A DNA stretch of 64,000 nucleotides, taken from Candidatus Saccharimonadia bacterium. GTDB lineage: Bacteria; Patescibacteriota; Saccharimonadia; UBA4664. Where the stretch lies: the NCBI GenBank assembly GCA_041743505.1, contig JBGTMQ010000017.1, forward strand, positions 85,368-149,367, written 5' to 3'. Each line of letters starts with the position of its first letter. The first letter of the stretch is position 1. Made by a program: the position numbers and the translations under genes. Of this stretch, positions 34,861-54,419 are shown piece by piece. Below the pieces are notes generated by a model, which saw only the letters and a list, made by a program, of their open reading frames with translations, ran no database searches and was not told the origin of the DNA.

Positions 34861-34916
34861 ATAAAAAACCGCGGGCCTAAAACTTAGCTAGTTATCTAAA
34901 GTGGAGATTCATCTAA

Positions 34917-35354
34917 ATGCCGGGTAAGAAAAACGCTTCCCAGACCGATCCAGAGAACGTATTACAGGATGACTTCCTCGATACTACTATGGAAGGCGAG
35001 GACGACTGGATGGCGGAGGCCGAAGGCCAGCTAGCCGTCGACGTCTATCAGACCAAAGAAAACGTTGTCATTAAGGCGCCCATCGCCGGCGTCACTCCTG
35101 ACAAGATCGACATCGAAGTCGCCGAAGACGTCGTCACCATCCGTGGTGAGCGGGTCGAAGAGAAGGAAGTCGACCGTGAGCACTACTACGTCCAAGAGTG
35201 CTACTGGGGTTCATTCTCTCGCTCAGTCATCCTACCGACCTCAACCATCGCCGAAAAAGCCGCCGCCAGCCTCAAAGACGGCGTATTAACGGTTACCATC
35301 CCCAAAGTCGCCCAAGACAAAGTCAAGAAGATCAAGGTCAAGCCGCTAGTCTAA
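34917..35354 (+). CDS. Hsp20/alpha-crystallin family small heat-shock protein
   Basis: Alpha-crystallin domain (AVDVYQTKENVVIKAPIAGVTPDKIDIEV...GVLTVTIPK). Confidence 0.85.
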   Translation: MPGKKNASQTDPENVLQDDFLDTTMEGEDDWMAEAEGQLAVDVYQTKENVVIKAPIAGVTPDKIDIEVAEDVVTIRGERVEEKEVDREHYYVQECYWGSFSRSVILPTSTIAEKAAASLKDGVLTVTIPKVAQDKVKKIKVKPLV

Positions 35355-35402: not shown

Positions 35403-35419
35403 ATCGCAAAGCATCAACT

Positions 35420-35452
35420 AAAAAGAGCCCCGCAGGGCTCTTTTCTAAAACT
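35420..35452 (-). terminator. rho-independent terminator of the pilin gene array
   Basis: AGAGCCC-CGCA-GGGCTCT hairpin with a T-run when read on the minus strand; it sits just 3' of the 35463 stop. Confidence 0.5.
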
Positions 35453-35462: not shown

Positions 35463-35906
35463 CTACTGAGCGTTATTCAACGCATTGATGACGAACTGGA
35501 CCGCTGCGAAGGACAAGATGGCTACCACGATACCCACGATGGCGTAGGTGATGGTGTTCTTGGCCGCTTCAACGTTCTTCGGATCACCATTGGAGACAGC
35601 GTAGCGCAGACCACCAACGATCAAAAACAGCACCGCTACGGCACCGACCAGGAAGATCAAAGTGTTAGCAGCCACCTGGAAGATGCCACCCTGACCAAAC
35701 AAGTTATCTTTGGTGCCATCAGCCTGCGAACATGCCGCTCCACTACTGATATTCAAGTTGGTGGTATTACAGTCGCCTTGCGCAGCCAAAGCCGGCGCCG
35801 GAGCCATCGTCGCGACGGTGGCCAAGCTAAAAACTCCAAACCCAAAGGCGAGAGTAAGAGCCTGAAATGTTACGGCAATTTTCTTGCCAAGAGTTGTGAT
35901 GCTCAT
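35463..35906 (-). CDS. VirB2/TrbC-like pilin paralog 1 (signal peptide plus two C-terminal TM helices)
   Basis: 147 aa. N-terminal signal-like segment, then LIFLVGAVAVLFLIVGGLRYAVSNGDPKNVEAAKNTITYAIVGIVVAILSFAAVQF. Two hydrophobic helices separated by a short basic loop is the VirB2-type topology. Confidence 0.55.
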   Translation of the reverse strand: MSITTLGKKIAVTFQALTLAFGFGVFSLATVATMAPAPALAAQGDCNTTNLNISSGAACSQADGTKDNLFGQGGIFQVAANTLIFLVGAVAVLFLIVGGLRYAVSNGDPKNVEAAKNTITYAIVGIVVAILSFAAVQFVINALNNAQ

Positions 35907-35988
35907 CTGAACCTAAAGACTCCTTTATAATTTCAATCAGTTAGTTTGAGCTGAATTTACCATAAGCATAAGGCAAAAGGCAAATCAT

Positions 35989-36306
35989 CTACTTATTGAA
36001 GGTTGTAACCACGAAGTTAACGATTGCGTATGCGGCAATGGCCAAAATAAGACCAATTACTGAGTACAAAATGGTGTTTCGTGCAGCTTCTGCCTGCTTA
36101 GGATCACCATTCGACGTTATGTAGCGCAAGGCCCCAATAATAATCATTATAACCGCCAGCGCACCGATCAAAAAAATCAGCGCGTTCGAAACAGCCGAAA
36201 AAATGACATTGATGTCTTTATTACCACAAGCCGTTTTGCAAGCGGCACCGGCACCACCACCAATAACGTTTGTAGCGTTATCGGCTAATTTAAAAAACTT
36301 TTCCAT
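35989..36306 (-). CDS. VirB2/TrbC-like pilin paralog 2
   Basis: 105 aa; LIFLIGALAVIMIIIGALRYITSNGDPKQAEAARNTILYSVIGLILAIAAYAIVNF. No obvious signal peptide. Confidence 0.55.
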   Translation of the reverse strand: MEKFFKLADNATNVIGGGAGAACKTACGNKDINVIFSAVSNALIFLIGALAVIMIIIGALRYITSNGDPKQAEAARNTILYSVIGLILAIAAYAIVNFVVTTFNK

Positions 36307-36322
36307 GAAACCTAAATACTCC

Positions 36323-36628
36323 TTAACTTAGTCTGGTACCAATAAACGTAACAGCCGCATACGCAGCAATAGCCACAACGAGGCCCACAATGGCATAAAT
36401 AATCGTTTCGCGGCCTTGCTTGACACGGGTTGGGCTACCAGCCGCTGTCACAATCTGAAGACCACCAACGATGATAAAGATTATCGCCAAAGCGCCGATA
36501 ATGTAAACCAGTAGTTCCACTATGTTACCTAAAGCGTCACTTACGTTCTGGGTAGAGTCCGGCAGCCCGGTCTCACCTTTGAGCGATATTCCCGCTACAT
36601 ATAGGTGGGTCAAAGCCGACTGCATCAT
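36323..36628 (-). CDS. VirB2/TrbC-like pilin paralog 3
   Basis: 101 aa; LVYIIGALAIIFIIVGGLQIVTAAGSPTRVKQGRETIIYAIVGLVVAIAAYAAVTF. Confidence 0.5.
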   Translation of the reverse strand: MMQSALTHLYVAGISLKGETGLPDSTQNVSDALGNIVELLVYIIGALAIIFIIVGGLQIVTAAGSPTRVKQGRETIIYAIVGLVVAIAAYAAVTFIGTRLS

Positions 36629-36975
36629 TAGAACCTACTCGCAATAAACGTGACCCCAGCGTATGCCACCATCACGATAATCAGCCCGGTTACAGCTTGA
36701 GTTATAATCTCTTTGGCCCGCTTCAGCCGCGCCGGGTCACCAATCGCCGTCACATAATAAATGCCGCCCACAATAATAAAAATCACCGCCAGGGCGCCGG
36801 CGAAAGCCATGAGAATCCGAACGAGATTGCCCAAAATAATAATGATGTCATAGACACCCGTAATCTTAACGTCATTACCAGGACAGCTAATACCGTCCCA
36901 AATACTCGGAAAAATTCCTGTCTTAGTGCCGCATGCATTGGCTGCCACTTTAAAGAACTGAAGTATCGGCTCCAT
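36628..36975 (-). CDS. VirB2/TrbC-like pilin paralog 4
   Basis: 115 aa; AFAGALAVIFIIVGGIYYVTAIGDPARLKRAKEIITQAVTGLIIVMVAYAGVTF. Its stop and start overlap the neighbouring genes. Confidence 0.5.
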   Translation of the reverse strand: MEPILQFFKVAANACGTKTGIFPSIWDGISCPGNDVKITGVYDIIIILGNLVRILMAFAGALAVIFIIVGGIYYVTAIGDPARLKRAKEIITQAVTGLIIVMVAYAGVTFIASRF

Positions 36976-37485
36976 CTACAGAATTCCTCCCGGTACCACG
37001 AAGCTTAGTATCGCAAAGGCTAGTATGAACAAAACCAAGGCCGTAACGGCATTTATCAGCCGGTCCTTCGCATCAGTAATTGCCTTGGGATCGCCATTAG
37101 ACACGATGTACTGGATACCCGCCACAATCACCATCAAAACTACTGCCGCGCCAACCGTAGCGGACAAGAACTGCAAAATGGTTTTCAGGTAATTAACAAC
37201 TATGCCGCCACCACTATTATCGACGCAATTTGAACCACCGCCCGGGTTTTTCGTAATCGGGACACCAATAGCCACCTGCCCTTCCGGACAGGTAATGTTA
37301 GACGGCTGTGGCGCTGTAGCACACTCGTTGATATTGCCGGAAGTGTCACAGGCCGGTTCCGCAGCCAAAGCCACCGTCGGCAAAGCTAGCGTCGGCAAAG
37401 CTAGCGCCGTAACTGCCGCCACAGTCAGTAAAATTTTGGCCAGGAAGCGTCTCATTGGCTGAAATTGTAGCCAAGCCCAAAGCAT
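36976..37485 (-). CDS. VirB2/TrbC-like pilin paralog 5 (signal peptide with a tandem-repeat segment)
   Basis: 169 aa; ...VGAAVVLMVIVAGIQYIVSNGDPKAITDAKDRLINAVTALVLFILAFAILSF. Signal peptide LALPTLALPTVALAA is encoded by an 18-nt tandem DNA repeat. Alternative start at Met 37455. Confidence 0.5.
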   Translation of the reverse strand: MLWAWLQFQPMRRFLAKILLTVAAVTALALPTLALPTVALAAEPACDTSGNINECATAPQPSNITCPEGQVAIGVPITKNPGGGSNCVDNSGGGIVVNYLKTILQFLSATVGAAVVLMVIVAGIQYIVSNGDPKAITDAKDRLINAVTALVLFILAFAILSFVVPGGIL

Positions 37486-37528
37486 AAGTCAAAACATTCT
37501 TTGACAAACGAGTCAAAACCTGTTACTT

Positions 37529-40051
37529 TTGTTGATTGTGTTTTTGGTGAATCACATCTGGGGGAGGGCAGCTAGACAATCGCTGTGGGCGATCCTGTTT
37601 GCTGTGCTCTTGTGCCTGGTGCCTCAAGCCGTTTCCGCCGCCGGCGAATCCTACACCTGGCAAGGCACAGGTGACGCCAGCATTGTAGCCTCCGGCGGTA
37701 ACTTCGGGGTCAATAAAACCACCTTCGCCAAGACCGCCGACGCCGGCGGAAGCGCCACCTTTACCGCCAACGCCACCTATGAATGTAGCGGCAAAACCGT
37801 CACCGGCCCGCTTACCATCACAGTGGCTGCCGACAAGTACAAAAAAGCCTACCCCACCGAAGGAAGCGTTACGGGCGCCGGCGCTGCCTGTGCCTTTACG
37901 GCCGCGGTAATCAGCAAAGCCAACGTCGATCAGGTCACCGGCCAGCCCGTCCCCGCCGCCGGCCAGGACCCACGGGAAAGCTGCGACCAAGGCGGGTTTA
38001 CCTGGCTGTTCTGCCCCGTCATCGACAATATATCCTCAGCCGTTGCCGGCCTGGCCCGGGACGTGCTGGGGCCCATGCTTGAGGTCAAACCAATCAGCCC
38101 AGAAACCACACCGGATCTCTACAAAACCTGGACTCATATCCGTGACTTTGCTGTAGTCCTGTTTATTCTCGTGTTTTTTGCCATTATCGGCGCCACACTC
38201 ATACAACAAGATATCGGCGGCTTCGACCAATATACCGTCAAAAAGATCTTGCCCCGACTGGTTATTGCCTCAATCATGGTACAGTTTAGCTTCCTCATCT
38301 CAGGCATTATTGTCGATATCGGAAATGTCCTTGGAGGTGGCATCGGCCACTTGCTGTCTGCGGTCACTGATCCATCCAAAGGCCCGGCCAGCTTCACCAA
38401 CCTGGTCGGCAACCTGGTCACCGGAAGTGTAGCCTCGGTTGCAGGACTGGGCGCCGTCGCCGTCCTGGCGTCGTGGACTGTCGCAATCCCTGTGCTGCTC
38501 GGCCTGCTCTTGAGCCTGCTGACCGTCTTCCTGACGCTTGGCGCCCGCTTCCTCATCCTGGCCGTCCTGATCGCCATCTCACCGATAGCCATGCTCGCCT
38601 GGGTCCTCCCGAACACTCGCGATTTTGCCGCCGCCTGGTTCGAGTTTTTCGTCCGGCTCGTCCTAATGTACCCGCTGGTTATCCTCATCATCTCCGTAGC
38701 CGGCATCGTCAACCAAATACTGCCGTTTAGTGGCGACACCGCCAATAGCGGCAGCGCAGCAGTCGCAGTAGCCCTCATCAAGCCGCTTGTCGTCATTGCC
38801 GCCTTCCTCATTATTCCCATCAGCTTCAAGCTCGCCGGGCTAGCCCTGAGCCGTATCCATGGCCTGCTCACCGGCGTTGCCCAACAGGGTAAAGGCCTCA
38901 TCAAGGGCAGCGATATGTACCAACGGGGCCTCGAGGACCGTCAGGGACGCAAGAATACCTACATGGGCCGCGTCCTCAACTCCAAAACCATCAGCTCACT
39001 CCAAAATAAGGGGCGCGGCGGCCAAGCAGTCGGCGGTTTCATGAGCGGCGCCGCCGCCGTAGCCTTAATGCGCGCCCCCGCCAGCAAAGCCGCTTTGCAA
39101 CGCAGTAACTCTGCACTAGTGGCCAAGCGGGAAAAGAATCTGACCGAAATCAAAGAGGCCCAAAACCCCAACAACCTCAAAGCCGCTTTAGCCGCCATGA
39201 ATGGCGACGAAAGCGCCCGGGCCAAGCTGCAAAGAACCGCTCCAGACTTACTCCGCCTGGCTTCAACCGCTTCCGGCCGCGAAGCCATGTTCAACCGCCT
39301 TCTCGCCACTGAGTTCGCCGACAGCAAAGACCTTGACCAGTTCCGCACAACCGCACCAAAACGCGGCCTCAAATACTTTGGTGTCACCGGTGATACATCC
39401 GCGGAATGGCGCTCCCTGCGTGACGCCGGCCAGGCCAAACGTAACCAGTTACCGACCATCGTACAGCGGCTCGAACAAGCCAAAACCTACGACGTGGTTG
39501 ACCGCGCCGGCAACACGCTCAAGACCATTTCCCGTGACATGGGCGCCGTTGATATGAATGGCGTCTCCAAGTCATTCGCCAAATACACCGCTGCCAAGCT
39601 GGCCGATGTCTCGCCGGATGTCTTTGAAATGATGACCGACACCGCCAACCCAATCGCCGCCATGGATGCTGCCGAGGCCATGGCCATTGGATTGGAGCCA
39701 CGGCAACTCGCCAAAGTCTTCGACCCCAATGACCGCAACCCGGCTCCCCCTGAGCGCAAGATCGCTATCGCTAAAGCTATGCGGGCCCAATATGAGAACG
39801 TCTGGAACACCAACGATGAATACCGCTCCACCTTCGACGCCATGCATCATCAATTGGTCCGCGACGACAAGCTTGGCGTCCAGCTAACCCGTACCGCCGG
39901 CGCCACCGAAACCCAGCTCCGTGCCCTCTCAAACGAAGGCCAATCCTACGTTGCCTCGCGCTGGCTCAAAGACAAGAACTTCAAGTACTCAGATCTAAGC
40001 GGCATGACCGTCGCCGACATCAACGCCGCCGGCCATGCCCTCCGGAGATAA
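37529..40051 (+). CDS. VirB6/TrbL-like polytopic T4SS membrane protein with long hydrophilic C-terminal extension (paralog A)
   Basis: TTG start (the exact start is uncertain). Signal peptide, then a Cys-containing exported segment (CDQGGFTWLFCPVIDN), at least 6 TM helices (DQYTVKKILPRLVIASIMVQFSFLISGIIVDIGN...), then a ~400-aa Ala/Lys-rich soluble tail. Confidence 0.55.
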   Translation: MLIVFLVNHIWGRAARQSLWAILFAVLLCLVPQAVSAAGESYTWQGTGDASIVASGGNFGVNKTTFAKTADAGGSATFTANATYECSGKTVTGPLTITVAADKYKKAYPTEGSVTGAGAACAFTAAVISKANVDQVTGQPVPAAGQDPRESCDQGGFTWLFCPVIDNISSAVAGLARDVLGPMLEVKPISPETTPDLYKTWTHIRDFAVVLFILVFFAIIGATLIQQDIGGFDQYTVKKILPRLVIASIMVQFSFLISGIIVDIGNVLGGGIGHLLSAVTDPSKGPASFTNLVGNLVTGSVASVAGLGAVAVLASWTVAIPVLLGLLLSLLTVFLTLGARFLILAVLIAISPIAMLAWVLPNTRDFAAAWFEFFVRLVLMYPLVILIISVAGIVNQILPFSGDTANSGSAAVAVALIKPLVVIAAFLIIPISFKLAGLALSRIHGLLTGVAQQGKGLIKGSDMYQRGLEDRQGRKNTYMGRVLNSKTISSLQNKGRGGQAVGGFMSGAAAVALMRAPASKAALQRSNSALVAKREKNLTEIKEAQNPNNLKAALAAMNGDESARAKLQRTAPDLLRLASTASGREAMFNRLLATEFADSKDLDQFRTTAPKRGLKYFGVTGDTSAEWRSLRDAGQAKRNQLPTIVQRLEQAKTYDVVDRAGNTLKTISRDMGAVDMNGVSKSFAKYTAAKLADVSPDVFEMMTDTANPIAAMDAAEAMAIGLEPRQLAKVFDPNDRNPAPPERKIAIAKAMRAQYENVWNTNDEYRSTFDAMHHQLVRDDKLGVQLTRTAGATETQLRALSNEGQSYVASRWLKDKNFKYSDLSGMTVADINAAGHALRR

Positions 40052-40907: not shown

Positions 40908-41013
40908 CCAGTCCGCGAAACAGCCCGCCCTAGCGACGTAGATACCCATCTACGGAGCTAGGGCATTTTTTGTTTTGATACATTGATTCCGCTCATGCTA
41001 AAATCGAGTCATC

Positions 41014-43716
41014 ATGGTGGATCAAACAGCAGCGGGCAAGCGCTTTATGAACCAGCGGTCTTCCGTCTGGCAACGAACCGTTTTTGGCCTCGCGCTAATC
41101 GCCGTCAGCCTCCTTGGCAACCTGCTGCTCATTGCCACAGCTTCGGCCGCCCCCGGCCGCCCCGAGGTCTACACGAAAATCAGCGAAGACGTCATTGCAG
41201 TCACAGGCGGCTATTTCGTAGACAAAACCTACAACCTTACGAAAATTCCAGGCACAAATAACTACCGGGGCGGTGTCCATGCCCCGGAATTTGACTATCC
41301 GTTCGCCAAATGTCTCTTTAGACACACCATCAACGTCGACGACGCCAATCCCCACAAAGGTGTAGTTGAAATCGAAACGGGCTTCGGAAACGGCAGCAAC
41401 TGTACCACCCAGCCTGAGAACTTTGAATGGGGCCCCGTCATCATCGCCCAGCCAGGTCAAACCCAAGAACAAGCCGCCGCTGCCGCCGGTGGTGGCGGTG
41501 CCGCCGGAGCCAATGAAATCGTAGCCACCTGCGACGCCGGCGCCTTCACCTGGCTCCTCTGCCCATTCATCGTCATCGCCCAAGACGGTGTCCGGATCCT
41601 CCAGGGCTGGGTCGAAAACGTCCTCGTCGTCACCCCGTTCAATACCAGCTCCCCGCTCTATTCCGCCTGGTCCGCCTTCCGCAACCTGGCCGACGTCTTC
41701 TTCGTCCTCATTTTCTTCGTCATCATCTTTGGCACCGGCCTCGGTCTAGACAACTACACTGTCAAAAAGATCCTGCCACGCTTAATAGCTGCCGCCATCC
41801 TCGTCCAATTTTCATACATCCTCTCCAGTATCGCCGTCGATTTCTCTAACATACTAGGTCTCGGTTTAAGCCAACTTGTTGCGTCAGCTGTGCCCGCCCA
41901 GTTTAACGCCGAGAAGAGTACCTATCTCCAGGTTGCTGCCCCCATTGCCGGCCTTCTAACCCTTGGTGTGGCCGGCGGAACCATTATCGCCATTGGCGCA
42001 CTGGTACCCGTTATGCTAGCTCTCGCTTCTGCATTCCTATCAATGCTAGCAGTCTTCGTCACGCTCGAGATCCGGCTTATCCTCATCAACTTCCTGGTTG
42101 TTATCTCCCCATTCGCCTTTGTATTCTGGGTACTACCCAACACCCAGCAGTATTTCAAAATGTGGTGGGAATATTTCAGCAAACTCCTTTTAATGTTCCC
42201 AATCATCATGCTCATGTTCACCGCCGCCAACCTGTTCAACCAAGTCACCATCACCACCAACACCGGCGACTTTAACGGCGACATAGCCAAAAACATCATT
42301 GCCTCCCTCCTGCCAATCTTCGTCTTCTTCCTCGTACCAGCCACCTTTAAACTCGCCGGCAGCGCCCTAGCCTTCGGCCATGGCTTAGTCACCCGAGCCG
42401 GCGGCGGTACCAACAAGGGCCTCCAAAGTGCCTTCTGGGGCAAGGATCAGCAGGAACGAAGCAAGCTTAAAGGTCAACAGAAACTTATGAATTTACGAGA
42501 CCAAGGACCTGCTAGCACCCGACTAGGTCGGTTTGCGCAAAACGCACAAAAACAAGCCGCTCAAAAACGTTCAGGATTCGGGTTTGGTGCCGATAAAGGC
42601 TTAAAGGGGCTTCAAATGAACCGAGCCCTCGATAAAACCGCCAGCGAACTCGCCCAATCGGCAGCAACAAAGGACTTCCACGCCCAGTACGGCAAACAAA
42701 CCTATGCGAATACTATGGCAAACCGCAAAGCAGCCGAAATGGACAAAATGCTCACTCAAAGCGCAAACGAAGCCTTCCTGAATCAAGAAGTAGATGTTGG
42801 AGGGGTCAATCTAAAAATTAAAGATGTCAACCTAAACGAAAGCGGCATCAAATCACTGAAGGACAAGGTTAAATCAGCCCTCAGTGACGGCGACCACGCT
42901 ACAGCTATAGCCGCCATGACAAAGCTCAGTCAATCGCAAAGCGGCGAAGACGCACTACAACAGCTTCGGGCAGATCCAAATGTATTCGGAGGCACAGACA
43001 CTGAACCTGTAATAAATAAGTTAAAAGATGTTTGGTCAAAAGGCACTGCAAACGCCAAAAGTCCTGACTTTAAAAAACCACCACAGAATGCCTGGAGCGA
43101 CCTAAGCCAAGAAGAAATAACAAGCATGAGCAATAAACAAGTAAATCGTGCTCTTGAGTATTACAATCGGAACGCTAGTGATCCAAAAGCACAAAAAGCT
43201 GCCAAACAATTTAGCGATAACTTCCAGAAAATACTTGCTAACCCTAACACCGCCAGCAAAATTAATCCGGATAGTGTTGATGCCGTCCAAAATTATCAGT
43301 GGGCCAAAGACACGACTACCGGCAAAGTCCTTACAGGGACTCCGCATCAAGACAGAACAGTATTTAGTAGCACCTCAGACTACCAGGCAGCAGCACATGC
43401 AGCTTCGTTATATACCAAACCGGGTTCAGCCACACCACCCCCAGCACAACCAGCCCCTCAGCCCGCAGCTCCACCACCACAACCAACTCCAACTCCGCTT
43501 ACACAACCAACCGTCAACGTAAATGTCCAGCCGACAAAGCCGACTATCATAACCGCTCCTCGCGCCGGTACACAGTTCCAACAGCCAACTCCTGGCTCCC
43601 TCTACGTCCCGAGCTCATACCAACCACCAACCACCAACCCGCGGCCACCCAAGGTTGATGTTGCCGTCGAAGAACACCGTGACGATCAAATCGGTGACGA
43701 CCGTAGTATCAGCTAA
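41014..43716 (+). CDS. VirB6/TrbL-like polytopic T4SS membrane protein with long hydrophilic C-terminal extension (paralog B)
   Basis: Paralog of 37529..40051 (CDAGAFTWLLCPFIV...; DNYTVKKILPRLIAAAILVQFSYILSSIAVDFSN...). 900 aa, with a Pro/Gln/Thr-rich C-terminus. Alternative start at Met 41047. Confidence 0.55.
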   Translation: MVDQTAAGKRFMNQRSSVWQRTVFGLALIAVSLLGNLLLIATASAAPGRPEVYTKISEDVIAVTGGYFVDKTYNLTKIPGTNNYRGGVHAPEFDYPFAKCLFRHTINVDDANPHKGVVEIETGFGNGSNCTTQPENFEWGPVIIAQPGQTQEQAAAAAGGGGAAGANEIVATCDAGAFTWLLCPFIVIAQDGVRILQGWVENVLVVTPFNTSSPLYSAWSAFRNLADVFFVLIFFVIIFGTGLGLDNYTVKKILPRLIAAAILVQFSYILSSIAVDFSNILGLGLSQLVASAVPAQFNAEKSTYLQVAAPIAGLLTLGVAGGTIIAIGALVPVMLALASAFLSMLAVFVTLEIRLILINFLVVISPFAFVFWVLPNTQQYFKMWWEYFSKLLLMFPIIMLMFTAANLFNQVTITTNTGDFNGDIAKNIIASLLPIFVFFLVPATFKLAGSALAFGHGLVTRAGGGTNKGLQSAFWGKDQQERSKLKGQQKLMNLRDQGPASTRLGRFAQNAQKQAAQKRSGFGFGADKGLKGLQMNRALDKTASELAQSAATKDFHAQYGKQTYANTMANRKAAEMDKMLTQSANEAFLNQEVDVGGVNLKIKDVNLNESGIKSLKDKVKSALSDGDHATAIAAMTKLSQSQSGEDALQQLRADPNVFGGTDTEPVINKLKDVWSKGTANAKSPDFKKPPQNAWSDLSQEEITSMSNKQVNRALEYYNRNASDPKAQKAAKQFSDNFQKILANPNTASKINPDSVDAVQNYQWAKDTTTGKVLTGTPHQDRTVFSSTSDYQAAAHAASLYTKPGSATPPPAQPAPQPAAPPPQPTPTPLTQPTVNVNVQPTKPTIITAPRAGTQFQQPTPGSLYVPSSYQPPTTNPRPPKVDVAVEEHRDDQIGDDRSIS

Positions 43717-43739
43717 CAATCCCCCGACAACTTGCTTAC

Positions 43740-43768
43740 TTGCTAATTATTAGTAAATATGCTATAAT
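43740..43768 (+). promoter_or_regulatory. sigma70 promoter with extended -10
   Basis: TTGCTA-17-TGcTATAAT upstream of the 43846 gene. Confidence 0.55.
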
Positions 43769-43845
43769 AAATAATCTATTTGTGCTTCTTTTTTATATGA
43801 ACACATATAGCGCCCCCGACAGCCTCGACAAGACAGGAAAAGCTA

Positions 43846-44532: not shown

Positions 44533-44540
44533 CTGTCCAC

Positions 44541-44575
44541 CCCGCCCCTTGCGAACTGCAGGGGGTCTTATTATT
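44541..44575 (+). terminator. conserved terminator element, copy 1
   Basis: CCACCCCGCCCCTTGCGAACTGCAGGGGGTCTTATTATTT: stem CCCCTTGC/GCAGGGGG plus a T-run. Confidence 0.6.
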
Positions 44576-46506: not shown

Positions 46507-47352
46507 ATGGGACAGTATAAAGTTCCTCAAGACGTCGAGTCCGAAGATAAAATCCTTGGGCCGTTAACGTTCAAACAGTTTATTTACGCCTTGGTCGGGT
46601 TCGGTTGGGCCATCGTGTGCTTTGGTGTTTTTCAAAAAATACCTGTTGTAATGATTTTATTGGGATTGCCGCCTACAACGCTATTCTTGCTGCTGGCTTT
46701 TTACCGGCGCGATGGCCAGAACTTCGAGCAATTACTCATCGCCATGGTCGGCTTCTTCGGTAACGACCGCAAACGGCTCTGGCGCAAGGATGACGTGGCG
46801 GAGACGTTCCACATTGAGCCGCACAAGATCATCAAGGAGCAGAGCCAGCGCAACCCGGTCGAAGTCCGCAGTGAGCTAGAGCGCCTGGCTACCATGATCG
46901 ACGCCCGTGGCTGGAACCAAACGCCTGTCCCGGCCGCCGAGGTCATCTCGCCCATCGGCTACAATGCCGGCGACCGGCTGGTAGCACCGGACAGCACGCC
47001 GGCCAACAGCAACCTGCCCCAGCCTCAAGCCAGCGAAGACATGCTAGACCTACAACACAGCCCACTGGCCCAAAACCTGGCCAGCCTCATCGAGACGGCA
47101 GCTGCTGACGTCCGCGAAGAGGCCATCGGCCAAATGAAAGCCCGCCAAACCGCCGCCCAGCGTCAAGCCGCTACTGCCGCTGCCACTCCCGCCCAGAGCA
47201 TAAGCGGCGTGACAGCAACCAACCCGAACGATATAATGAGATTAGCAACGGAGAGGGATGACTTGACCGTCTCGCAGCTGGCCGCGACCGCCACTCGGAA
47301 CGCGCCCCTGCAAGAAGGTCAGTCAGTGAGTGTACGCGCAAATGGTCAATAA
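46507..47352 (+). CDS. VirB3/PrgI-like T4SS membrane protein
   Basis: An AGGAG RBS. Two closely spaced TM helices near the N-terminus (LTFKQFIYALVGFGWAIVCFGVF...VMILLGLPPTTLFLLLAFY), immediately upstream of the VirB4-like ATPase. Long hydrophilic C-terminal tail. Confidence 0.5.
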   Translation: MGQYKVPQDVESEDKILGPLTFKQFIYALVGFGWAIVCFGVFQKIPVVMILLGLPPTTLFLLLAFYRRDGQNFEQLLIAMVGFFGNDRKRLWRKDDVAETFHIEPHKIIKEQSQRNPVEVRSELERLATMIDARGWNQTPVPAAEVISPIGYNAGDRLVAPDSTPANSNLPQPQASEDMLDLQHSPLAQNLASLIETAAADVREEAIGQMKARQTAAQRQAATAAATPAQSISGVTATNPNDIMRLATERDDLTVSQLAATATRNAPLQEGQSVSVRANGQ

Positions 47353-48088
47353 CCAGTCAACCAGTAACCCAGCCAACACCGGCAAGAGCACTCAGGGCAG
47401 CTTGCTGATTTCTGAAATCAAAGACGGCGTGGTCGTAATGCGCGACGGCTCGTTGCGCGGCGTCATCCTCGGCTCGGCCATTAACTTCGACCTCATGAGC
47501 TCGCAGGAGCAGGAGGCCGTCGAATTTGCTTACCAGGGCTTTATTAACTCATTGCACTTTCCCGTCCAAATCAGTATCAAGAGCCAGAAAATAGACCTGG
47601 ACGGATATCTCGAAAAGTTAACCGCCCTGCGCAGTGCCCAGCCCAATGAGCTGCTCGGCCTGCTCATGGACGACTACATGGCTAACATCAAGGCCCTGGT
47701 CGACGAGGTCAACATTATGGACAAGCAGTTCTACGTCACCGTGCCGTTCTTCCCGCCGGTAAATCCCACCAAAACGGTTAGCCTCATTGCCGGCATCAAA
47801 GCCGCCTTACAACCCGTCCCGATTATTACGGTTGAAGAAGATGAGTTCAAAAAGTACAAGCAAGAGCTGTCGCAGCGCATGGCCTTGGTCTCAAGCGGCA
47901 TGTCCCAAATGGGCATCCGGGCGCTAGCCTTGGGTACCCAGGAGCTGGTTGACCTGTATTACGGCTGGTACAACCCGGATGTGGCCGTCAACGAGAAACT
48001 CATCGACACTTCACAGCTCACCTCACCGGTAGTTACCAAGGGTGACGGCGCCGCGCCCCGCGGACCATTACCGGGAGCACCAGTATGA
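47342..48088 (+). CDS. VirB4-like ATPase, N-terminal domain encoded as a separate ORF
   Basis: ISEIKDGVVVMRDGSLRGVILGSAINFDLMSSQEQEAVEFAYQGFINSLHFPVQISIKSQKIDLDGYLEKL matches the conserved VirB4/TrbE/CagE N-terminal region. The start overlaps the upstream stop. Confidence 0.55.
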   Translation: MVNNQSTSNPANTGKSTQGSLLISEIKDGVVVMRDGSLRGVILGSAINFDLMSSQEQEAVEFAYQGFINSLHFPVQISIKSQKIDLDGYLEKLTALRSAQPNELLGLLMDDYMANIKALVDEVNIMDKQFYVTVPFFPPVNPTKTVSLIAGIKAALQPVPIITVEEDEFKKYKQELSQRMALVSSGMSQMGIRALALGTQELVDLYYGWYNPDVAVNEKLIDTSQLTSPVVTKGDGAAPRGPLPGAPV

Positions 48089-50136: not shown

Positions 50137-53088
50137 GTGGCAGAACCAGCACGGCCACTCGACTCTGATCAACCCGAATACCTGGATTCACGGGCCGCAC
50201 GTAAAGCCCGCATGCGTGGTGGCTCTATCGAAGGTGGCGGTGAGGGCGGCGAACCAGTCAACCGCGACCTCCGGGCAGTTCCCGAATCCGAGACCAAGCC
50301 CGAAGCCCCGGCCAACGAGATGGGGGACAACGCAAAAAATCAGGGCCGCCCTAACCTCCGGGTAATCCCGGGAGGCAAAAGCGATAATGCCGGTTCGCGG
50401 ACCGGCGGAGCCCCAGACCCCGGCGCCTCAGGCGGCCAAAATAACCCCGCTGGTGGGCCCGGCTCCAAGAGCAGCAAAGGCGGCGTCGGCGGCAAACTGG
50501 GGCAAATGTTCGGCCGCAACAAGAAAAAAATGATAGCCGGCGGTGGCATCGGCGCCGTTCTCATAAGTGCAATCCTCGGCGTCATCGCTCTTCTGCCCCT
50601 CAAAATGGAATCGTTAATCCAAAACGTCATCAAGGATGAGTTCAAGCGTGCTAACTATGCGGTTGGTGAGCGGGCCGAAGTGCTCGCGGTCTATTACTTG
50701 GCCCGTAAAGCCAATGTTGACATTGGCAGAAATATTGTAACCGGCGGTCCCGTCGATCTCCTGTTCGGCAATATGGCCAAGAACGACTTCGAAAAAACAC
50801 TTCTCAAAAACCATGGTATTAAAGTTGAAGCAGGTTCCGCCAGGGGTCGCATTAAGGTTACGTATACAGGACCGTACGAGACTAAGAGCATCGACGATCC
50901 GCTTAGTGAGTATATTAACCAAGACCTCAGTAGCAACGATTCCCGTGCATTCTTAAAAGCCGCCACGAAAGAATATACCAGAAGTGCCACCAAATACCCG
51001 CTTGTGCTTATCCGACGCCACATCCGGTCCTGGATGCGCAACGCCTACGGCATTCGTAAATGGAAGCTTTATGACGGCAAAAAGGGCAAAGAGGCCAGTA
51101 AATTTATTGATGGTGAAATCCGGACTGCAGCCATGAGTTCCTATGGAGATCGTGTAGGTAGAGGTTTGAGTTGTATCTTGGGCGATAAAGCCAGTTGTCC
51201 CGACGCGGCCAAAGCCAACCCCAATCCAAACGAGGGCCGGCCCGCCAATGCCGATGGCGAAGCTGCCAGACTGGCGCTAAACGAAGCCATCTCTGAGGTA
51301 GCTGGGAGCGAAGAAACCTTGACTACCGATGCCGTGACAAAAAAAGTTAGCGAAAGCTTACTCAAGCAAACCGCCACCAAAGCCATCCCCATCATTGGCT
51401 GGATCGACCTCGCTGCCCGCATCGATGATGTCGTCTGGCATAATATTATCGGCCAAATCATCGCCGACTACCGCGCTGCGCAATACGCCGCCACCTTCGC
51501 CATCTTCGCCACCGCCGCCGACAACCAAAAGGAGGGCATAGACGGCACTACCAAGAACCGTGCCTCCGGCGACGAAGTCAACGCCGTCATGCTCAAGGTA
51601 GCTGATGTTCATAAGTCAGCCGACTTCCAGCGAATTTTTTTTAACCGGGCCGGCGGTCAAAAGCTGCCTCCAGAAAAACAAGTCAACAGCGCCAACGCTG
51701 CCAGCTTTACCGCCGGCTATCAAAAGGAAATGTTCATCTTCCATTACGGTATCTTCGTTCCATACCTAGCCACTATTGGCCAAGTTGTCAACTTCCTTGG
51801 CGACCTTATCGGCGGGGTTCTCGGGGTAATTGGCGACGCCCTCACCGCGGTGCTGCCGTTTTTGAACGACGTCAAAAAATTCATAGGTGAAGTCATGATG
51901 AAAGTATTTCAATGGATCTTCCCGCCGGTAGTAACCGGCGCCGAACGCGACGGAGAACTCTTTACCGCCATCGACACCGGCGCCGATGTCACCGCCAACG
52001 ATTTCTGCAAAGGTGTCTTGGGCTGTGTCAAAGTATCACCCACCGCCGCCGCCGAAGCTGACCGCCGAATAGCTATAAATGAAGCCACCGAGTTTAGACA
52101 GCAGGACCTTATTTCCCGCATTACCGATATTCAGAACCCCAACGCCTTCGGTGCCCGTTTCCTCGCCCTCATGCCCACCAGCGTCGGCAGTGTTACTAGT
52201 CAAACTCAAGACTATTTGGCGTCCATTTTTTCCAACCCCTTACGATTCTTTGCGCCATTCCTGGGTGTACTGTCTCACACCTTAGCGCATGGTGTCAGCG
52301 CTGACGCGCCCATTCCCAAAGAGCATGGTGTCCAACAGTACAATGTAACCCAAGAAATGATCGATGCCCCCTTGAACGAGCTCGTCGCCAGCGGCAAGGC
52401 CAAAACCCGCGAAGACTGTCTCAACCCGTCCATAAATCCCGAAGCCGCCAACCCCGAAGGACCCAATAGCTGTCTCTTGGAGCTAGCCGCCGTTCAAGCT
52501 ATGAATGCCGTTTACACCAAAGACAATGACGGTGGTCTCGAGCCCGAAGCCGGCGCACCCGCCGGCGGTGGCGGTATCATCAATGGACCTGGCGGCAATA
52601 TAGCCACAGCCGGCTGCAACGACGCTAGAACCTGCGCCCAAAAAATCCTAGCTCTTGTACCAAGCAAAATTACCTTCCAGCAACCCAGCGACCGGTCAGA
52701 CATGGAAAAAGTTGCCAACGGCCAACCAGTCGTTTACTGCCAGGTCAATGGCCCCATCAACACCACGCTGCTCCAAGCCATCGTCGTGGCCGGCCAGACC
52801 TACAGCTTTAGCATCAACGCCCTAGCCTCCGGTCACGGCAAATGTGACGGCGCCTTCCACGACAAGGGCCGAGCCGTTGACGTCGGCAACGTGAACGGCG
52901 TCCAAGCCACCCAATCAAACCTTGGCACCGCCACCTACAAACAATTTGCTCAATTCATTGCCAATCTCTTACCAAACGGCGGTCTTGGCCAAATGCAATG
53001 CCTCGGTTCACTCAGCCCTGCGCCCCACCGCTACTTTGAAGATGGTTGCAACCACATTCACTTCGATGTCGGGGCTGGTGCCCCTTGA
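50137..53088 (+). CDS. large bitopic membrane protein with a C-terminal M15-like (Hedgehog/DD-peptidase fold) zinc-peptidase motif
   Basis: GTG start after an AAGGAGGG RBS. Gly-rich disordered cytoplasmic N-terminus, one TM helix (IGAVLISAILGVIALLPL), an ~830-aa extracytoplasmic region, and a C-terminal SGHGKCDGAFHDKGRAVDV...GCNHIHFDV stretch that resembles H-x7-D...H-x-H zinc ligands. Confidence 0.45.
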   Translation: MAEPARPLDSDQPEYLDSRAARKARMRGGSIEGGGEGGEPVNRDLRAVPESETKPEAPANEMGDNAKNQGRPNLRVIPGGKSDNAGSRTGGAPDPGASGGQNNPAGGPGSKSSKGGVGGKLGQMFGRNKKKMIAGGGIGAVLISAILGVIALLPLKMESLIQNVIKDEFKRANYAVGERAEVLAVYYLARKANVDIGRNIVTGGPVDLLFGNMAKNDFEKTLLKNHGIKVEAGSARGRIKVTYTGPYETKSIDDPLSEYINQDLSSNDSRAFLKAATKEYTRSATKYPLVLIRRHIRSWMRNAYGIRKWKLYDGKKGKEASKFIDGEIRTAAMSSYGDRVGRGLSCILGDKASCPDAAKANPNPNEGRPANADGEAARLALNEAISEVAGSEETLTTDAVTKKVSESLLKQTATKAIPIIGWIDLAARIDDVVWHNIIGQIIADYRAAQYAATFAIFATAADNQKEGIDGTTKNRASGDEVNAVMLKVADVHKSADFQRIFFNRAGGQKLPPEKQVNSANAASFTAGYQKEMFIFHYGIFVPYLATIGQVVNFLGDLIGGVLGVIGDALTAVLPFLNDVKKFIGEVMMKVFQWIFPPVVTGAERDGELFTAIDTGADVTANDFCKGVLGCVKVSPTAAAEADRRIAINEATEFRQQDLISRITDIQNPNAFGARFLALMPTSVGSVTSQTQDYLASIFSNPLRFFAPFLGVLSHTLAHGVSADAPIPKEHGVQQYNVTQEMIDAPLNELVASGKAKTREDCLNPSINPEAANPEGPNSCLLELAAVQAMNAVYTKDNDGGLEPEAGAPAGGGGIINGPGGNIATAGCNDARTCAQKILALVPSKITFQQPSDRSDMEKVANGQPVVYCQVNGPINTTLLQAIVVAGQTYSFSINALASGHGKCDGAFHDKGRAVDVGNVNGVQATQSNLGTATYKQFAQFIANLLPNGGLGQMQCLGSLSPAPHRYFEDGCNHIHFDVGAGAP

Positions 53089-54419
53089 AAAAGGTCATCC
53101 TTCGATTCATTGTCATTAGCATCATGGCAACACTCATACCATCGGGTGTTTTTGCCGTTTCGCCGGAGGACCGCCATGCCATCTATAACAATACGGTCTG
53201 GTATGACCCCTATGCCGTCGAGTGCGGCCCAATCGGTACGGGCATCACCCCTGGCGGCGGTGGACCAGCCGCTCCAGGATCGGATAACATGGAAGAAATC
53301 TGGAACAACCTCATCACCAGACTGACACCGTTCCAAGTAGCCGGCATCATGGGTAACATGCAGTCCGAATCCGGGTTTGACCCCTACATTGTCCAGGGTG
53401 GTGGCCATTCACAAAACCCGTCAGTTGCGGGTGAAGGCGTGGGTTACGGCCTGGTGCAATGGACACCCGGCTCCAAGCTCACCACACTGCTAGCCGGTAA
53501 ACCACCCACCATCCCCAACCAAATCGATGCCTTATGGGTCCAGCTAACCGGCACCGGCGCCCATTCCGAAAAAAAAGCCGGCGACAATTTACGAGCCACC
53601 ACCAGCATTGATGACGCCACAGTAGTTTTCGAGCTTCAGTACGAACGGCACGCCGGCGGGGCCCAGCCGGCCCGCAAAACCCAGGCTCATGCCATCCACA
53701 AACTCGCTCAAGAAAAAGGCTGGAACATGGGCACCGCCGTAGTAGTGCCGGTTGGCAGCGGCGGACCCGGCGGGGGACCAGGCGGCGGCCCGGCTAGTAC
53801 AACACCCCAATCAGCCGCCAACTGTACAGCACCAGCTGGTGCCGGTGGTGTCGGTTGCACCAACGGCGCCAACATATTGCCAGTGCCCCCAGGGGGGAAG
53901 GGAACACCTGCCTGCTACTTCAACCAATCCGACCTCAGTGGCGGCAACTACGATTGGCCCGAATGTGGCTGCCTGCCGACCTCAGCTCTCATCATCCGGG
54001 CCTCGGTCGAAAACAATCCAACCCTTGATCCGGTCAGTGTGCTTGAGGGCGTCCGCTCCAAAGGCGGGGTCCATGAGGGGGGATGCTTGGGTGTACATGG
54101 AGGCGCCATCAACTACATCCAGTCACTAGGCTACCAAACCCAAACCATTGTTCCGTGGCATGGAACAATTACCGATGCCTCAATCGCCACAATAACTAAT
54201 ATGCTTGGACAAGGTTTCATGTTCATGACCCATACTTCTAAATCAATTGACAGCGCCGGCTCTAAAGACACCCCGGGCCACTTCCTAGTCATCCATGCCG
54301 TCGATGCCCAAGGCAATTTCTACGTCGCAAACCCCGGAGCCCGGGCCGATAACAATAAACCTGTTCCAGCCTCCAGAGTAAAAGTCTGGCTGGACATGGC
54401 GGTAGCATTCAAAAAATGA
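53046..54419 (+). CDS. secreted cell-wall hydrolase (VirB1 functional analogue): lysozyme-like domain plus C-terminal CHAP-like peptidase
   Basis: Signal peptide (alternative TTG start at 53085). The AGIMGNMQSESGFDP...GYGLVQWTPG motif is typical of the phage-tail-lysozyme-type muramidase domain found in Gram-positive conjugation hydrolases. The C-terminal Cys...His region (GHFLVIHAVDAQGNFYVANPG) is CHAP-like. Confidence 0.55.
   Translation: MQPHSLRCRGWCPLKKVILRFIVISIMATLIPSGVFAVSPEDRHAIYNNTVWYDPYAVECGPIGTGITPGGGGPAAPGSDNMEEIWNNLITRLTPFQVAGIMGNMQSESGFDPYIVQGGGHSQNPSVAGEGVGYGLVQWTPGSKLTTLLAGKPPTIPNQIDALWVQLTGTGAHSEKKAGDNLRATTSIDDATVVFELQYERHAGGAQPARKTQAHAIHKLAQEKGWNMGTAVVVPVGSGGPGGGPGGGPASTTPQSAANCTAPAGAGGVGCTNGANILPVPPGGKGTPACYFNQSDLSGGNYDWPECGCLPTSALIIRASVENNPTLDPVSVLEGVRSKGGVHEGGCLGVHGGAINYIQSLGYQTQTIVPWHGTITDASIATITNMLGQGFMFMTHTSKSIDSAGSKDTPGHFLVIHAVDAQGNFYVANPGARADNNKPVPASRVKVWLDMAVAFKK

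What the first reader, a model, noticed from the sequence alone, without database searches (positions are those of the whole stretch)
35463..37485. Five tandem paralogous VirB2/TrbC-like pilin genes with a conserved loop
All five ORFs end in the same module. Its consensus is G[AG]LA[VI]..II.GG[LI].Y[IV]TSNGDP.....AK..I..A..GL.....AYA.V.F, with S-N-G-D-P conserved in four of the five loops. Two hydrophobic helices flank a short basic loop carrying this motif. Only the outer two paralogs (35463 and 36976) carry signal-peptide-like N-termini. The inner three have short hydrophilic N-termini. The gene boundaries overlap or abut (36628 is both a stop and a start), which implies tight translational coupling. 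Five pilin-like paralogs in one array is unusual. It suggests heteropolymeric or antigenically variable pili, or distinct major and minor pilins.
Basis: seen in the sequence. Interest (0 to 1): 0.75.

Follow-up and report, generated by a model that had tools for sequence, protein, structure and literature searches.

The report
Saccharibacterial T4SS pilin gene array
These five small genes are the tandem VirB2-like pilin array next to the chromosomal type IV secretion system of a Saccharimonadia (Patescibacteria) bacterium, a feature already described in the literature and normal for this lineage.

Summary
Five minus-strand ORFs (35463-37485) share a C-terminal two-helix module. All five score above Pfam's cutoff for PF18895 (T4SS_pilin). 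They form one operon, divergent from two VirB6-like genes. Downstream lie PrgI/VirB3, TrsD-like, VirB4 (CD1110 family) and a lysozyme/peptidase, about 20 kb from dnaA on a Saccharimonadia chromosome.

The pilin reading is right, but "unusual" is not. Of 79 species-level relatives, 68 carry five or more tandem pilin genes (mode six). Such arrays were reported by Wang et al. 2023 (essential in S. epibionticum) and Quinonero-Coronel et al. 2025 (441 arrays of 2-11 genes).

What I add:
- Gene order is orthologous across species. Same-position identity is 60%, against 35% between paralogs.
- The signal-peptide pattern S---S is conserved in this clade.
- The last gene is the most conserved (69-87%).
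- The paralogs share no long DNA tracts.

This favours old, non-redundant subunits (major and minor pilins, or a heteromeric assembly) over antigenic variation. Whether a pilus is actually built is unknown.

Minor corrections: SNGDP is exact in three of five loops (GDP in four), and the loops are only weakly basic. Novelty: already known. Interest is low.

The parts
36976..37485 (-). P5, first gene of the pilin operon. 169 aa from the ATG at 37485, or more likely 159 aa from the ATG at 37455. It has a signal-peptide-like N-terminus, a four-Cys extracellular stretch, then the two-helix pilin module.
   Evidence: PF18895 at 35.4 bits against a cutoff of 26.6. Three hydrophobic segments and Cys positions. 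Position-1 orthologues in relatives are 54-63% identical.
36628..36975 (-). P4, pilin paralogue of 115 aa. No signal peptide and two Cys in the N-terminal tail. Its start abuts the P5 stop.
   Evidence: PF18895 at 30.6 bits. TAG ATG junction. Position-2 orthologues are 46-58% identical.
36323..36628 (-). P3, pilin paralogue of 101 aa. No signal peptide, no Cys, loop AAGSP. Its start overlaps the P4 stop by one base (TAATG).
   Evidence: PF18895 at 48.9 bits, and TrbC PF04956 at 24.2 bits, which is below the 27.9 cutoff. Junction read.
35989..36306 (-). P2, pilin paralogue of 105 aa. No signal peptide and two Cys. It has its own AAGGAG ribosome-binding site.
   Evidence: PF18895 at 49 bits. AF2 model has helices 32-64 and 69-103 with mean pLDDT 73.7. 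An identical protein is present in public data (P0001).
35463..35906 (-). P1, last gene of the operon, 147 aa. It has a long signal-peptide-like leader and two Cys. It is the most conserved paralogue and the candidate major subunit.
   Evidence: PF18895 at 39.3 bits. Orthologues are 69-87% identical in the six closest species. The last position is also the most conserved in 45 six-gene arrays, at 74%.
37464..37492 (-). Promoter-like site TTGACT-17-TACAAT upstream of the operon. It would give a near-leaderless P5 mRNA starting at the ATG at 37455.
   Evidence: Consensus scan, 10 of 12 matches. Such sites are not enriched over shuffles, so this is weak evidence.
35415..35445 (-). Intrinsic-terminator-like hairpin (11-bp stem followed by a U tract) just after the P1 stop. 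It marks the operon end.
   Evidence: RNA fold of -22.6 kcal/mol, z = -3.64 against shuffles. Sequence read.
37529..40051 (+). VirB6/TrbL-like polytopic membrane protein (840 aa), transcribed divergently from the pilin operon.
   Evidence: PF04610 TrbL at 27.9 bits against a cutoff of 25.9. A VirB6 homologue is detected in 60 of 79 related loci and flanks the array in the 10 loci listed.
41014..43716 (+). Second VirB6-like paralogue (900 aa).
   Evidence: Shares motifs with the 840-aa protein. Best blastp hits in relatives swap between the two. It has no Pfam hit of its own.
46507..47352 (+). PrgI / VirB3-like protein.
   Evidence: PF12666 PrgI at 54.4 bits.
47330..48088 (+). TrsD-like protein (weak match).
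   Evidence: NF041427 TrsD at E = 1.1e-5, far below its cutoff. Its position directly upstream of virB4 matches what is described for Patescibacteria (PMC12102498).
48225..50114 (+). VirB4-like ATPase of the monoderm (MPF-FATA) type.
   Evidence: NF045971 CD1110 family at 352.7 bits against a cutoff of 325. TraG P-loop and AAA_10 domains.
53046..54419 (+). Lysozyme plus C39-like peptidase, the cell-wall hydrolase of the cluster (VirB1 analogue).
   Evidence: PF18013 at 92.8 bits and PF13529 at 21.5 bits. The same arrangement is essential in S. epibionticum according to PMC12102498.

Best explanation
SHOWN. The five genes form one operon of diverged paralogues of the PF18895 'T4SS_pilin' family, which is remotely related to TrbC/VirB2. 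The operon sits beside the chromosomal, monoderm-type (MPF-FATA-like) type IV secretion cluster of a Saccharimonadia (Patescibacteria) bacterium, close to dnaA. Each product ends in a hydrophobic helix-loop-helix hairpin. Gene order, length class and presence or absence of a signal peptide are conserved position by position in related species. The duplications are therefore old and the copies are not interchangeable.

INFERRED (mechanism).
- P5 and P1 enter the membrane through Sec and lose a leader. P2-P4 insert without one, for example via YidC.
- In all five the Cys-bearing N-terminus and the C-terminus face outward, and the weakly basic loop faces the cytoplasm, as in VirB2.
- The VirB6/VirB3/VirB4 machine then extracts these hairpins from the membrane. 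It assembles them into a cell-wall-spanning, pilus-like conduit made of several pilin species.
- The highly conserved last gene (P1) would be the bulk subunit. The more variable upstream genes, especially P5 with its Cys-rich extension, would be minor, base or tip subunits.

By analogy with S. epibionticum, where the pilin series and the T4SS are essential for growth on the host, the structure probably serves host contact or exchange rather than conjugation.
For: Family: all five are above the PF18895 cutoff. 15 of 22 close family members also hit TrbC/VirB2 PF04956 at E < 0.01. 220 database homologues, and every one of the 120 listed carries PF18895.

Topology: two C-terminal hydrophobic segments in all five, plus an N-terminal one in P5 and P1 only. 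All Cys lie in the pre-TM1 segment. The AF2 model has helices 32-64 and 69-103.

Context: VirB6; PrgI, VirB4 and lysozyme; VirB4 in the CD1110 family above its cutoff, and TrsD-like; dnaA, dnaN and recF at 57-62 kb. No relaxase or T4CP domain among the ORFs scanned with Pfam: every gene of the cluster from 40.2 to 56.7 kb, plus about ten larger ORFs elsewhere.

Taxon: 74 of the 79 best genomic loci are Saccharibacteria, Saccharimonadia or unnamed MAG records, and the closest VirB4 is 89% identical.

Operon: promoter-like site, abutting or overlapping junctions and ribosome-binding sites, terminator.

Non-redundancy:
- The order P5-P4-P3-P2-P1 is recovered in 6 species.
- Same-position identity is 59.7%, against 35.2% between different positions and 35.7% within a genome.
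- The S---S pattern occurs in 7 genomes.
- In 45 six-gene arrays the first and last positions are their own best match in 94% and 93% of comparisons, and the last gene averages 74% identity.
- No shared DNA tract exceeds 40 nt at 60-75% identity.

Literature: predicted pilin series essential and within the T4SS cluster (PMC10633639). 441 arrays of 2-11 pilin genes (PMC12102498). Review of the same (PMC12857230).
Against: - No one has seen a T4SS pilus in any Patescibacterium (literature searches), so polymerisation is pure inference.
- A profile search of PDB sequences found no pilin.
- None of the five reaches the TrbC/VirB2 cutoff.
- Signal-peptide and topology calls are hydropathy heuristics, not SignalP or TMHMM.
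- The 'major subunit' role of P1 rests only on its conservation.
Confidence: 0.6

Rival explanations
1. Same proteins, but no extended pilus. The five hairpins would be fixed-stoichiometry membrane or cell-wall-spanning components of the T4SS channel itself. This resembles the small pilin-like two-TM proteins of mycoplasma and other monoderm conjugative elements, with each paralogue occupying a distinct site in the machine.
For: - Monoderm T4SSs generally make no pilus (PMC10633639, PMC12102498).
- Four of the five give sub-cutoff hits to NF045849, the Mbov_0395 pilin-like conjugal transfer protein of mycoplasma ICEs.
- A single PF18895 gene sits in an actinobacterial integrative element beside an integrase and a Replic_Relax protein.
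- Strict positional orthology fits fixed structural roles as well as it fits a heteromeric filament.
Against: - The family is homologous to bona fide polymerising pilins. 15 of 22 members hit TrbC/VirB2.
- The last gene is very highly conserved and has its own strong ribosome-binding site, which suits an abundant polymer subunit.
- Reviewers of the field favour a pilus-like structure, as speculation only (PMC12857230).
Confidence: 0.25
2. The array is a repertoire for antigenic or host-range variation. The copies would be interchangeable and fast-evolving, giving alternative surfaces for different hosts, as proposed for the VirB2 paralogues of Bartonella and Anaplasma and suggested for Patescibacteria.
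For: - Paralogues are very divergent: 31-48% full-length identity to P1 and 27-51% over the C-terminal module.
- The N-terminal extracellular parts differ most.
- Array size varies from 2 to 10 between lineages.
- This idea is offered in PMC12102498.
Against: - Each position has its own orthologue across species, much closer than any paralogue (59.7% against 35%).
- Order and signal-peptide pattern are conserved.
- There are no shared DNA tracts, cassettes or recombination repeats among the copies.
- All copies lie in one operon with coupled translation, so they are co-expressed rather than switched.
Confidence: 0.1
3. They are not secretion-system components at all, but small two-TM membrane proteins of another kind (holin, bacteriocin immunity, or type IV pilus pilins).
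For: Short two-TM proteins give many weak hits to unrelated membrane families, such as DUF6112, DUF6773 and Cyt_bd_oxida_II, all below their cutoffs.
Against: - All five are above the PF18895 cutoff, and no holin, immunity or N-methylation pilin family was found at E <= 1.
- PHROGs gave nothing for four proteins and one function-unknown hit at E = 0.0027 for P5.
- A VirB6 homologue accompanies the array in 60 of 79 loci.
Confidence: 0.02

Closest known systems
T4SS pilin array of Saccharibacteria, e.g. Ca. Southlakia epibionticum ML1 SEML1_0006-0019 (Wang et al. 2023, PMC10633639), and the VirB2 arrays surveyed across Patescibacteria (Quinonero-Coronel et al. 2025, PMC12102498)
   Same: - Same protein family (PF18895).
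- Tandem array of sequence-divergent paralogues.
- Lies beside VirB6, PrgI/VirB3, TrsD, VirB4 and a lysozyme/peptidase.
- Near dnaA.
- No relaxase or coupling protein found in the cluster.
- Saccharimonadia host.
   Different: - Five genes rather than the six reported for S. epibionticum.
- The signal-peptide pattern is S---S, whereas most relatives show SS-SSS (heuristic).
- The window's clade appears to be an environmental lineage, since several of its closest relatives are MAGs with 'SMAG' isolate names.
- Essentiality is unknown here.
TrbC/VirB2 conjugative pilins of diderm T4SSs (Pfam PF04956; A. tumefaciens VirB2, RP4 TrbC, F TraA)
   Same: - Small protein with two hydrophobic helices and a short, positively charged connecting loop.
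- A long cleavable leader in P1 and P5.
- Genetic linkage to VirB6, VirB3 and VirB4.
- Remote HMM similarity: P3 scores 24.2 bits, and 15 of 22 relatives score E < 0.01.
   Different: - All five are below the PF04956 cutoff.
- The host is a monoderm.
- Three of the five lack a leader.
- There are five co-transcribed copies instead of one.
- No VirB5, VirB7, VirB9 or VirB10 was found in the cluster.
- Pilus formation has not been demonstrated.
Mbov_0395/MMCAP2_0565 pilin-like conjugal transfer protein of mycoplasma ICEs (NCBIfam NF045849), and single PF18895 genes in actinobacterial integrative elements (e.g. L051, Nocardioides cheoyonin)
   Same: - Monoderm T4SS context.
- An approximately 80-residue two-helix module alignable over its whole length.
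- The Nocardioides protein is 62% identical to P2 over residues 39-103.
   Different: - Scores are below the NF045849 cutoff (at most 37.8 bits against 40).
- Those elements carry one copy and are mobile. L051 has an integrase and a Replic_Relax protein.
- Here there are five copies, in a housekeeping chromosomal region.
Tandem VirB2 paralogues of Bartonella and Anaplasma phagocytophilum T4SSs
   Same: Several divergent virB2 copies sit next to a host-interaction T4SS.
   Different: Those are diderm TrbC/VirB2-family members, thought to serve antigenic variation. Here positional orthology and the lack of shared DNA tracts argue against that role.

Membership tests
Pfam PF18895 T4SS_pilin | HMM score at or above the gathering cutoff (26.6 bits) | tested here: met
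   P1 39.3, P2 49.0, P3 48.9, P4 30.6 and P5 35.4 bits.
Pfam PF18895 T4SS_pilin | Two hydrophobic helices joined by a short loop at the C-terminus | tested here: met
   Hydropathy segments in all five. AF2 model of P2 has helices 32-64 and 69-103 with pLDDT about 80-87 in that part.
Pfam PF18895 T4SS_pilin | Genomic linkage to T4SS core genes | tested here: met
   VirB6 is divergent and adjacent. PrgI, TrsD-like, VirB4 and lysozyme lie within 17 kb. A VirB6 homologue is present in 60 of 79 related loci.
Patescibacterial VirB2-like pilin array (PMC10633639, PMC12102498) | Two or more pilin genes in tandem near an MPF-FATA-like virB4 | tested here: met
   Five tandem genes. VirB4 matches NF045971 (CD1110 family) at 352.7 bits against a cutoff of 325, 10.7 kb away.
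Patescibacterial VirB2-like pilin array (PMC10633639, PMC12102498) | Low identity between paralogues of one array (reported mean 25%, maximum 54%) | tested here: met
   31-48% full-length identity to P1. 27-51% over the C-terminal 72 aa.
Patescibacterial VirB2-like pilin array (PMC10633639, PMC12102498) | Host is a Patescibacterium, with a chromosomal location often near dnaA | tested here: met
   The best 79 loci are nearly all Saccharibacteria or Saccharimonadia records. Synteny ComF-Hsp20-array-VirB6 is shared. dnaA lies at 60719-62104. The rest of the window is housekeeping.
Patescibacterial VirB2-like pilin array (PMC10633639, PMC12102498) | No relaxase or coupling protein in the cluster | tested here: met
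   No relaxase or T4CP Pfam domain in any gene from 40212 to 56745, nor in the other large ORFs scanned. Small ORFs and the 1-33 kb part of the window were scanned only partly.
Patescibacterial VirB2-like pilin array (PMC10633639, PMC12102498) | Essential for epibiotic growth | not testable with these tools
   Known only from Tn-seq in S. epibionticum (PMC10633639).
Pfam PF04956 TrbC/VirB2 (canonical conjugative pilins) | HMM score at or above the gathering cutoff (27.9 bits) | tested here: not met
   Only P3 hits, at 24.2 bits. The others give nothing at E <= 1. 15 of 22 relatives hit at E < 0.01, so there is remote homology but not membership.
Pfam PF04956 TrbC/VirB2 (canonical conjugative pilins) | Cleavable, usually long, signal peptide on the propilin | tested here: inconclusive
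   P1 and P5 have leader-like N-termini ending in ALA|A, whereas P2-P4 have none. This is a heuristic only; no SignalP was available.
Pfam PF04956 TrbC/VirB2 (canonical conjugative pilins) | Fold superimposable on solved conjugative pilins | tested here: inconclusive
Pfam PF04956 TrbC/VirB2 (canonical conjugative pilins) | Polymerises with phospholipid into an extracellular pilus | not testable with these tools
   This needs microscopy or biochemistry. No such report was found for Patescibacteria.
NCBIfam NF045849 Mbov_0395 pilin-like conjugal transfer protein | Score at or above the cutoff (40 bits) | tested here: not met
   P2 37.8, P1 28.4, P5 28.4 and P3 27.8 bits; P4 has no hit.
Type IV pilus (T4P) pilins | N-terminal class III leader / N-methylation motif | tested here: not met
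   No N_methyl or pilin family appears among the Pfam hits at E <= 1. The N-termini read lack a G|F/M-xxxE motif.
Holins / bacteriocin immunity proteins | HMM match to a holin or immunity family | tested here: not met
   None in Pfam. In PHROGs only P5 has one hit, to a family of unknown function at E = 0.0027.

The most novel reading that the evidence does not exclude
The array encodes a fixed, multi-subunit VirB2-type filament or conduit in a monoderm. Each array position would be a distinct, non-exchangeable structural subunit: the last gene the shaft, the first Cys-rich gene a base or tip adaptor, and the leaderless inner genes a separately inserted class. This heteromeric T4SS pilus would be the essential channel through which Saccharibacteria take material from their actinobacterial hosts. 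No heteromeric VirB2 pilus, and no VirB2 pilus in a monoderm, has been demonstrated.
Probability: 0.3. Interest if true: 0.7.

Novelty: already known. Interest (0 to 1): 0.25.

Why it matters
The T4SS and its pilin series are among the few systems shown to be essential for the epibiotic life of a cultivated Patescibacterium, and their function is still unknown.

This window adds only another instance. However, the comparative result obtained here sharpens the open question. The copies are position-specific orthologues, conservation is highest at the last gene of the array, and the leader pattern is fixed within a clade. Together these point to a heteromeric or major/minor-subunit assembly rather than a variation repertoire. 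They also indicate which gene to target first, the last one, in pilus purification or CRISPRi experiments.

Tried and rejected
- Scanning genome contigs with the five-paralogue alignment A1 failed because it had no conserved stretch. A P2-orthologue alignment, A2, was used instead.
- A profile search of PDB sequences with A2 gave only coiled-coil designs and ABC-transporter TM helices, and no pilin.
- PHROGs gave no holin-like or phage family.
- I looked for an internal promoter ahead of P1. A 15-nt match to the P5 upstream region exists (35964-35978 against 37480-37494). No acceptable -10 element follows it and the scan did not call it, so it was not claimed.
- I looked for gene-conversion tracts or cassettes among the copies and found none.
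- I considered that non-Patescibacterial hits (Verrucomicrobiia L056, Acidobacteriota L063) indicate wider distribution. Both carry six-gene pilin arrays like the Saccharimonadia loci, so they are probably mis-binned contigs. This was not checked further. L051 (Nocardioides) is genuinely actinobacterial by GC content.
Full report
**1. The observation**

| Gene | Coordinates | Length |
|---|---|---|
| P5 | 36976-37485 | 169 aa |
| P4 | 36628-36975 | 115 aa |
| P3 | 36323-36628 | 101 aa |
| P2 | 35989-36306 | 105 aa |
| P1 | 35463-35906 | 147 aa |

Transcription runs from P5 to P1. The five align over a common C-terminal module with the consensus GALAVIFIIVGGLxYxTSNGDPKxxxxAKxTIxYAVxGLVxAIxAYAxVxFV. 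An HMM built from P2 and 21 of its database homologues scores the five at E = 2e-17 to 1.7e-44. It finds no other copy in the 64 kb window, so the repeat is not chance.

Reading the sequence gives the junctions:
- P5 and P4 abut (TAG ATG).
- P4 and P3 overlap by one base at 36628 (TAATG).
- P3 and P2 are 16 nt apart, with AAGGAG between them.
- P2 and P1 are 82 nt apart, with AAGGAG between them.

Other operon signals:
- A promoter-like TTGACT-17-TACAAT site lies at 37492-37464. It overlaps the first ATG of P5, so the ATG at 37455 (MRRFLAK...) is the more likely start.
- A strong hairpin with a U tract follows the P1 stop (-22.6 kcal/mol, z = -3.64).

The array therefore reads as one five-gene operon.

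A hydropathy analysis finds two C-terminal hydrophobic segments in all five proteins. An additional N-terminal segment, ending in ALA|A, occurs only in P5 and P1. Every cysteine (4, 2, 0, 2 and 2 from P5 to P1) lies before the first pilin helix.

Two details of the finding need correction:
- SNGDP is exact in three loops, not four. G-D-P is present in four.
- The loop is only weakly basic. My own count from the sequences, including the residue before the loop, gives a net charge of 0 to +2. The narrower loop windows printed also give 0 to +2.

**2. What the proteins are**

- All five pass the gathering cutoff of Pfam PF18895, 'Type IV secretion system pilin' (30.6-49 bits against 26.6).
- Only P3 touches TrbC/VirB2 PF04956, at 24.2 bits, below its cutoff of 27.9.
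- Among 22 close family members, 15 also match PF04956 at E < 0.01. The family is therefore a remote relative of VirB2, not a member of TrbC proper.
- NCBIfam gives sub-cutoff matches to NF045849, the 'Mbov_0395 pilin-like conjugal transfer protein' of mycoplasma ICEs.
- No holin, immunity or type IV pilus family appears.

An AF2 model of P2 built with 22 sequences has mean pLDDT 73.7, and about 80-87 over the hairpin. It shows helices 32-64 and 69-103 joined by the SNGD turn.

Fold searches could not discriminate, as expected for a helical hairpin:
- Foldseek found nothing at E <= 0.001.
- A sequence-profile search of the PDB found no pilin.

**3. Context**

The operon is divergent from an 840-aa TrbL/VirB6 protein. 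A second VirB6-like paralogue of 900 aa follows it. Further downstream on the plus strand lie:
- PrgI/VirB3.
- A weak TrsD-like protein.
- A VirB4 that passes the cutoff of the CD1110 family of monoderm conjugation ATPases.
- A lysozyme plus C39-like peptidase.

No relaxase or coupling-protein domain was found in the cluster or in the other large ORFs examined. recF, dnaN, dnaA and yidC lie at 57-63.7 kb. The rest of the window is housekeeping: ValRS, phosphoglucomutases, a Mur ligase, FemAB and TsaD. This is therefore a chromosomal T4SS near the replication origin.

P2 is identical to a protein already present in public data (P0001). Its homologues all carry PF18895. The 79 best genomic loci are almost all Saccharibacteria or Saccharimonadia MAGs, and the closest VirB4 is 89% identical.

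**4. Is a five-gene array unusual?**

No. In the 79 species-level loci, 68 have five or more tandem pilin ORFs. The distribution is 10 with five, 45 with six, 10 with seven, 2 with eight and 1 with ten. The synteny ComF-like, Hsp20, pilin array, VirB6 is shared: homologues are found in 66, 72 and 60 loci respectively.

The literature already describes this:
- Wang et al. [quoted passage not shown]
- Quinonero-Coronel et al. 2025 (PMC12102498) counted 441 arrays of 2-11 pilin genes in 383 Patescibacteria assemblies. These were especially common in Saccharimonadia, with mean identity 25% and maximum 54%. They also noted the proximity to dnaA.

The finding is thus an instance of a known feature.

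**5. What the comparison adds**

Best-hit typing recovers the order P5-P4-P3-P2-P1 with matching lengths in six species: L001, L002, L003, L005, L009 and L018. Over the C-terminal 72 residues the identities are:

| Comparison | Mean identity |
|---|---|
| Same position, between genomes (n = 105) | 59.7% |
| Different positions, between genomes | 35.2% |
| Paralogues within a genome | 35.7% |

P1 is the most conserved, at 69-87%.

The heuristic leader pattern S---S is shared by the window and those six genomes. Most other Saccharimonadia arrays show SS-SSS (38 of 69).

Across 45 six-gene arrays, the first and last positions are their own best match in 94% and 93% of genome pairs. Mean identity is highest at the last two positions (64% and 74%, against 46-50% at positions 1-4).

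At the DNA level the copies share nothing longer than a 40-nt stretch at 60-75% identity.

The duplications are therefore ancient, and the copies are position-specific and co-expressed. It argues for non-redundant subunits.

**6. Mechanism**

Shown:
- Family membership.
- Hairpin architecture.
- Operon structure.
- Linkage to the T4SS.
- Positional orthology.

Inferred:
- Sec-dependent insertion and leader cleavage for P5 and P1, and leader-independent insertion for P2-P4.
- An N-out/C-out topology with the loop in the cytoplasm, as in VirB2. The exclusively N-terminal cysteine pairs fit an oxidising, extracellular location.
- Extraction by VirB6/VirB3/VirB4 and assembly into a wall-spanning, pilus-like conduit.
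- P1 as the bulk subunit and the upstream genes as minor subunits.

The main rival is that the proteins never polymerise and are fixed channel components. Single PF18895 or NF045849 proteins in monoderm mobile elements may be of that kind. The data here cannot separate the two readings.

**7. Verdict**

The pilin interpretation is supported. The claim of unusualness is not. Novelty is 'already known' and interest is low (0.25). The biology of the system itself remains an open and interesting question.

Noticed in passing
window 37529-40051 and 41014-43716 (+): Two VirB6/TrbL-like paralogues (840 and 900 aa), separated only by a 231-aa ORF (40212-40907), share motifs such as CD.G.FTWL.CP and YTVKKILPRL. 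Only the first reaches the Pfam TrbL cutoff. In relatives the best blastp hits swap between the two.
   Followed up: partly
window 43846-44532 and 44723-45388 (+): Two adjacent paralogous genes of 228 and 221 aa inside the T4SS cluster. Both begin MSKQGWE.Y..DALKRL and end ..IIPGV.RL...L.L.WDGN. Neither has a Pfam match. Their function is unknown and they are a second tandem duplication in the cluster.
   Followed up: no
L051 9725-10210 (Nocardioides cheoyonin KR10-350 contig7): A cultured actinobacterium with 60-73% GC DNA carries a single PF18895 pilin gene (42.7 bits) that has a signal peptide. It is 62% identical to P2 over residues 39-103. It sits beside a tyrosine integrase, a Replic_Relax protein and a weak T4CP-like ORF, so it is probably part of an ICE. 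VirB2-like pilins therefore exist in mobile elements of the phylum that hosts Saccharibacteria, which bears on the origin of the array.
   Followed up: partly
window 57004-63710: recF (57004-58080, -), dnaN (58662-59771, -), dnaA (60719-62104, -) and yidC (62751-63710, +). The replication origin is probably near 62.1-62.7 kb, so the T4SS cluster ends about 4 kb from dnaA and the pilin array lies about 23 kb from it. This matches the origin-proximal placement reported for Patescibacteria.
   Followed up: partly
window 1-64000: GC skew is negative in every 2-kb bin of the plus strand across the whole window (-0.05 to -0.31). It does not depend on gene orientation and shows no sign change near dnaA.
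   Followed up: no
window 34138-35354; loci L001-L079: A ComF/GntX-like phosphoribosyltransferase and an Hsp20 gene flank the 3' end of the pilin array here. Homologues are found in 66 and 72 of the 79 related loci. Many relatives also have one extra, lone pilin gene on the opposite strand beyond ComF, which this window lacks.
   Followed up: partly
window 35964-35978 and 37480-37494 (-): A 15-nt near-repeat (TTTTGCCTTATGCTT and TTTTGACTTATGCTT) lies upstream of both P1 and P5. Separately, the ribosome-binding regions of P1 and P2 are 88-94% identical over 16-17 nt. These could be duplicated regulatory sequence, but no convincing -10 element follows the P1 copy.
   Followed up: partly
L056 (Verrucomicrobiia MAG) and L063 (Acidobacteriota MAG): Contigs labelled as non-Patescibacteria carry six-gene pilin arrays like the Saccharimonadia loci. 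They are probably mis-binned Saccharimonadia contigs.
   Followed up: no
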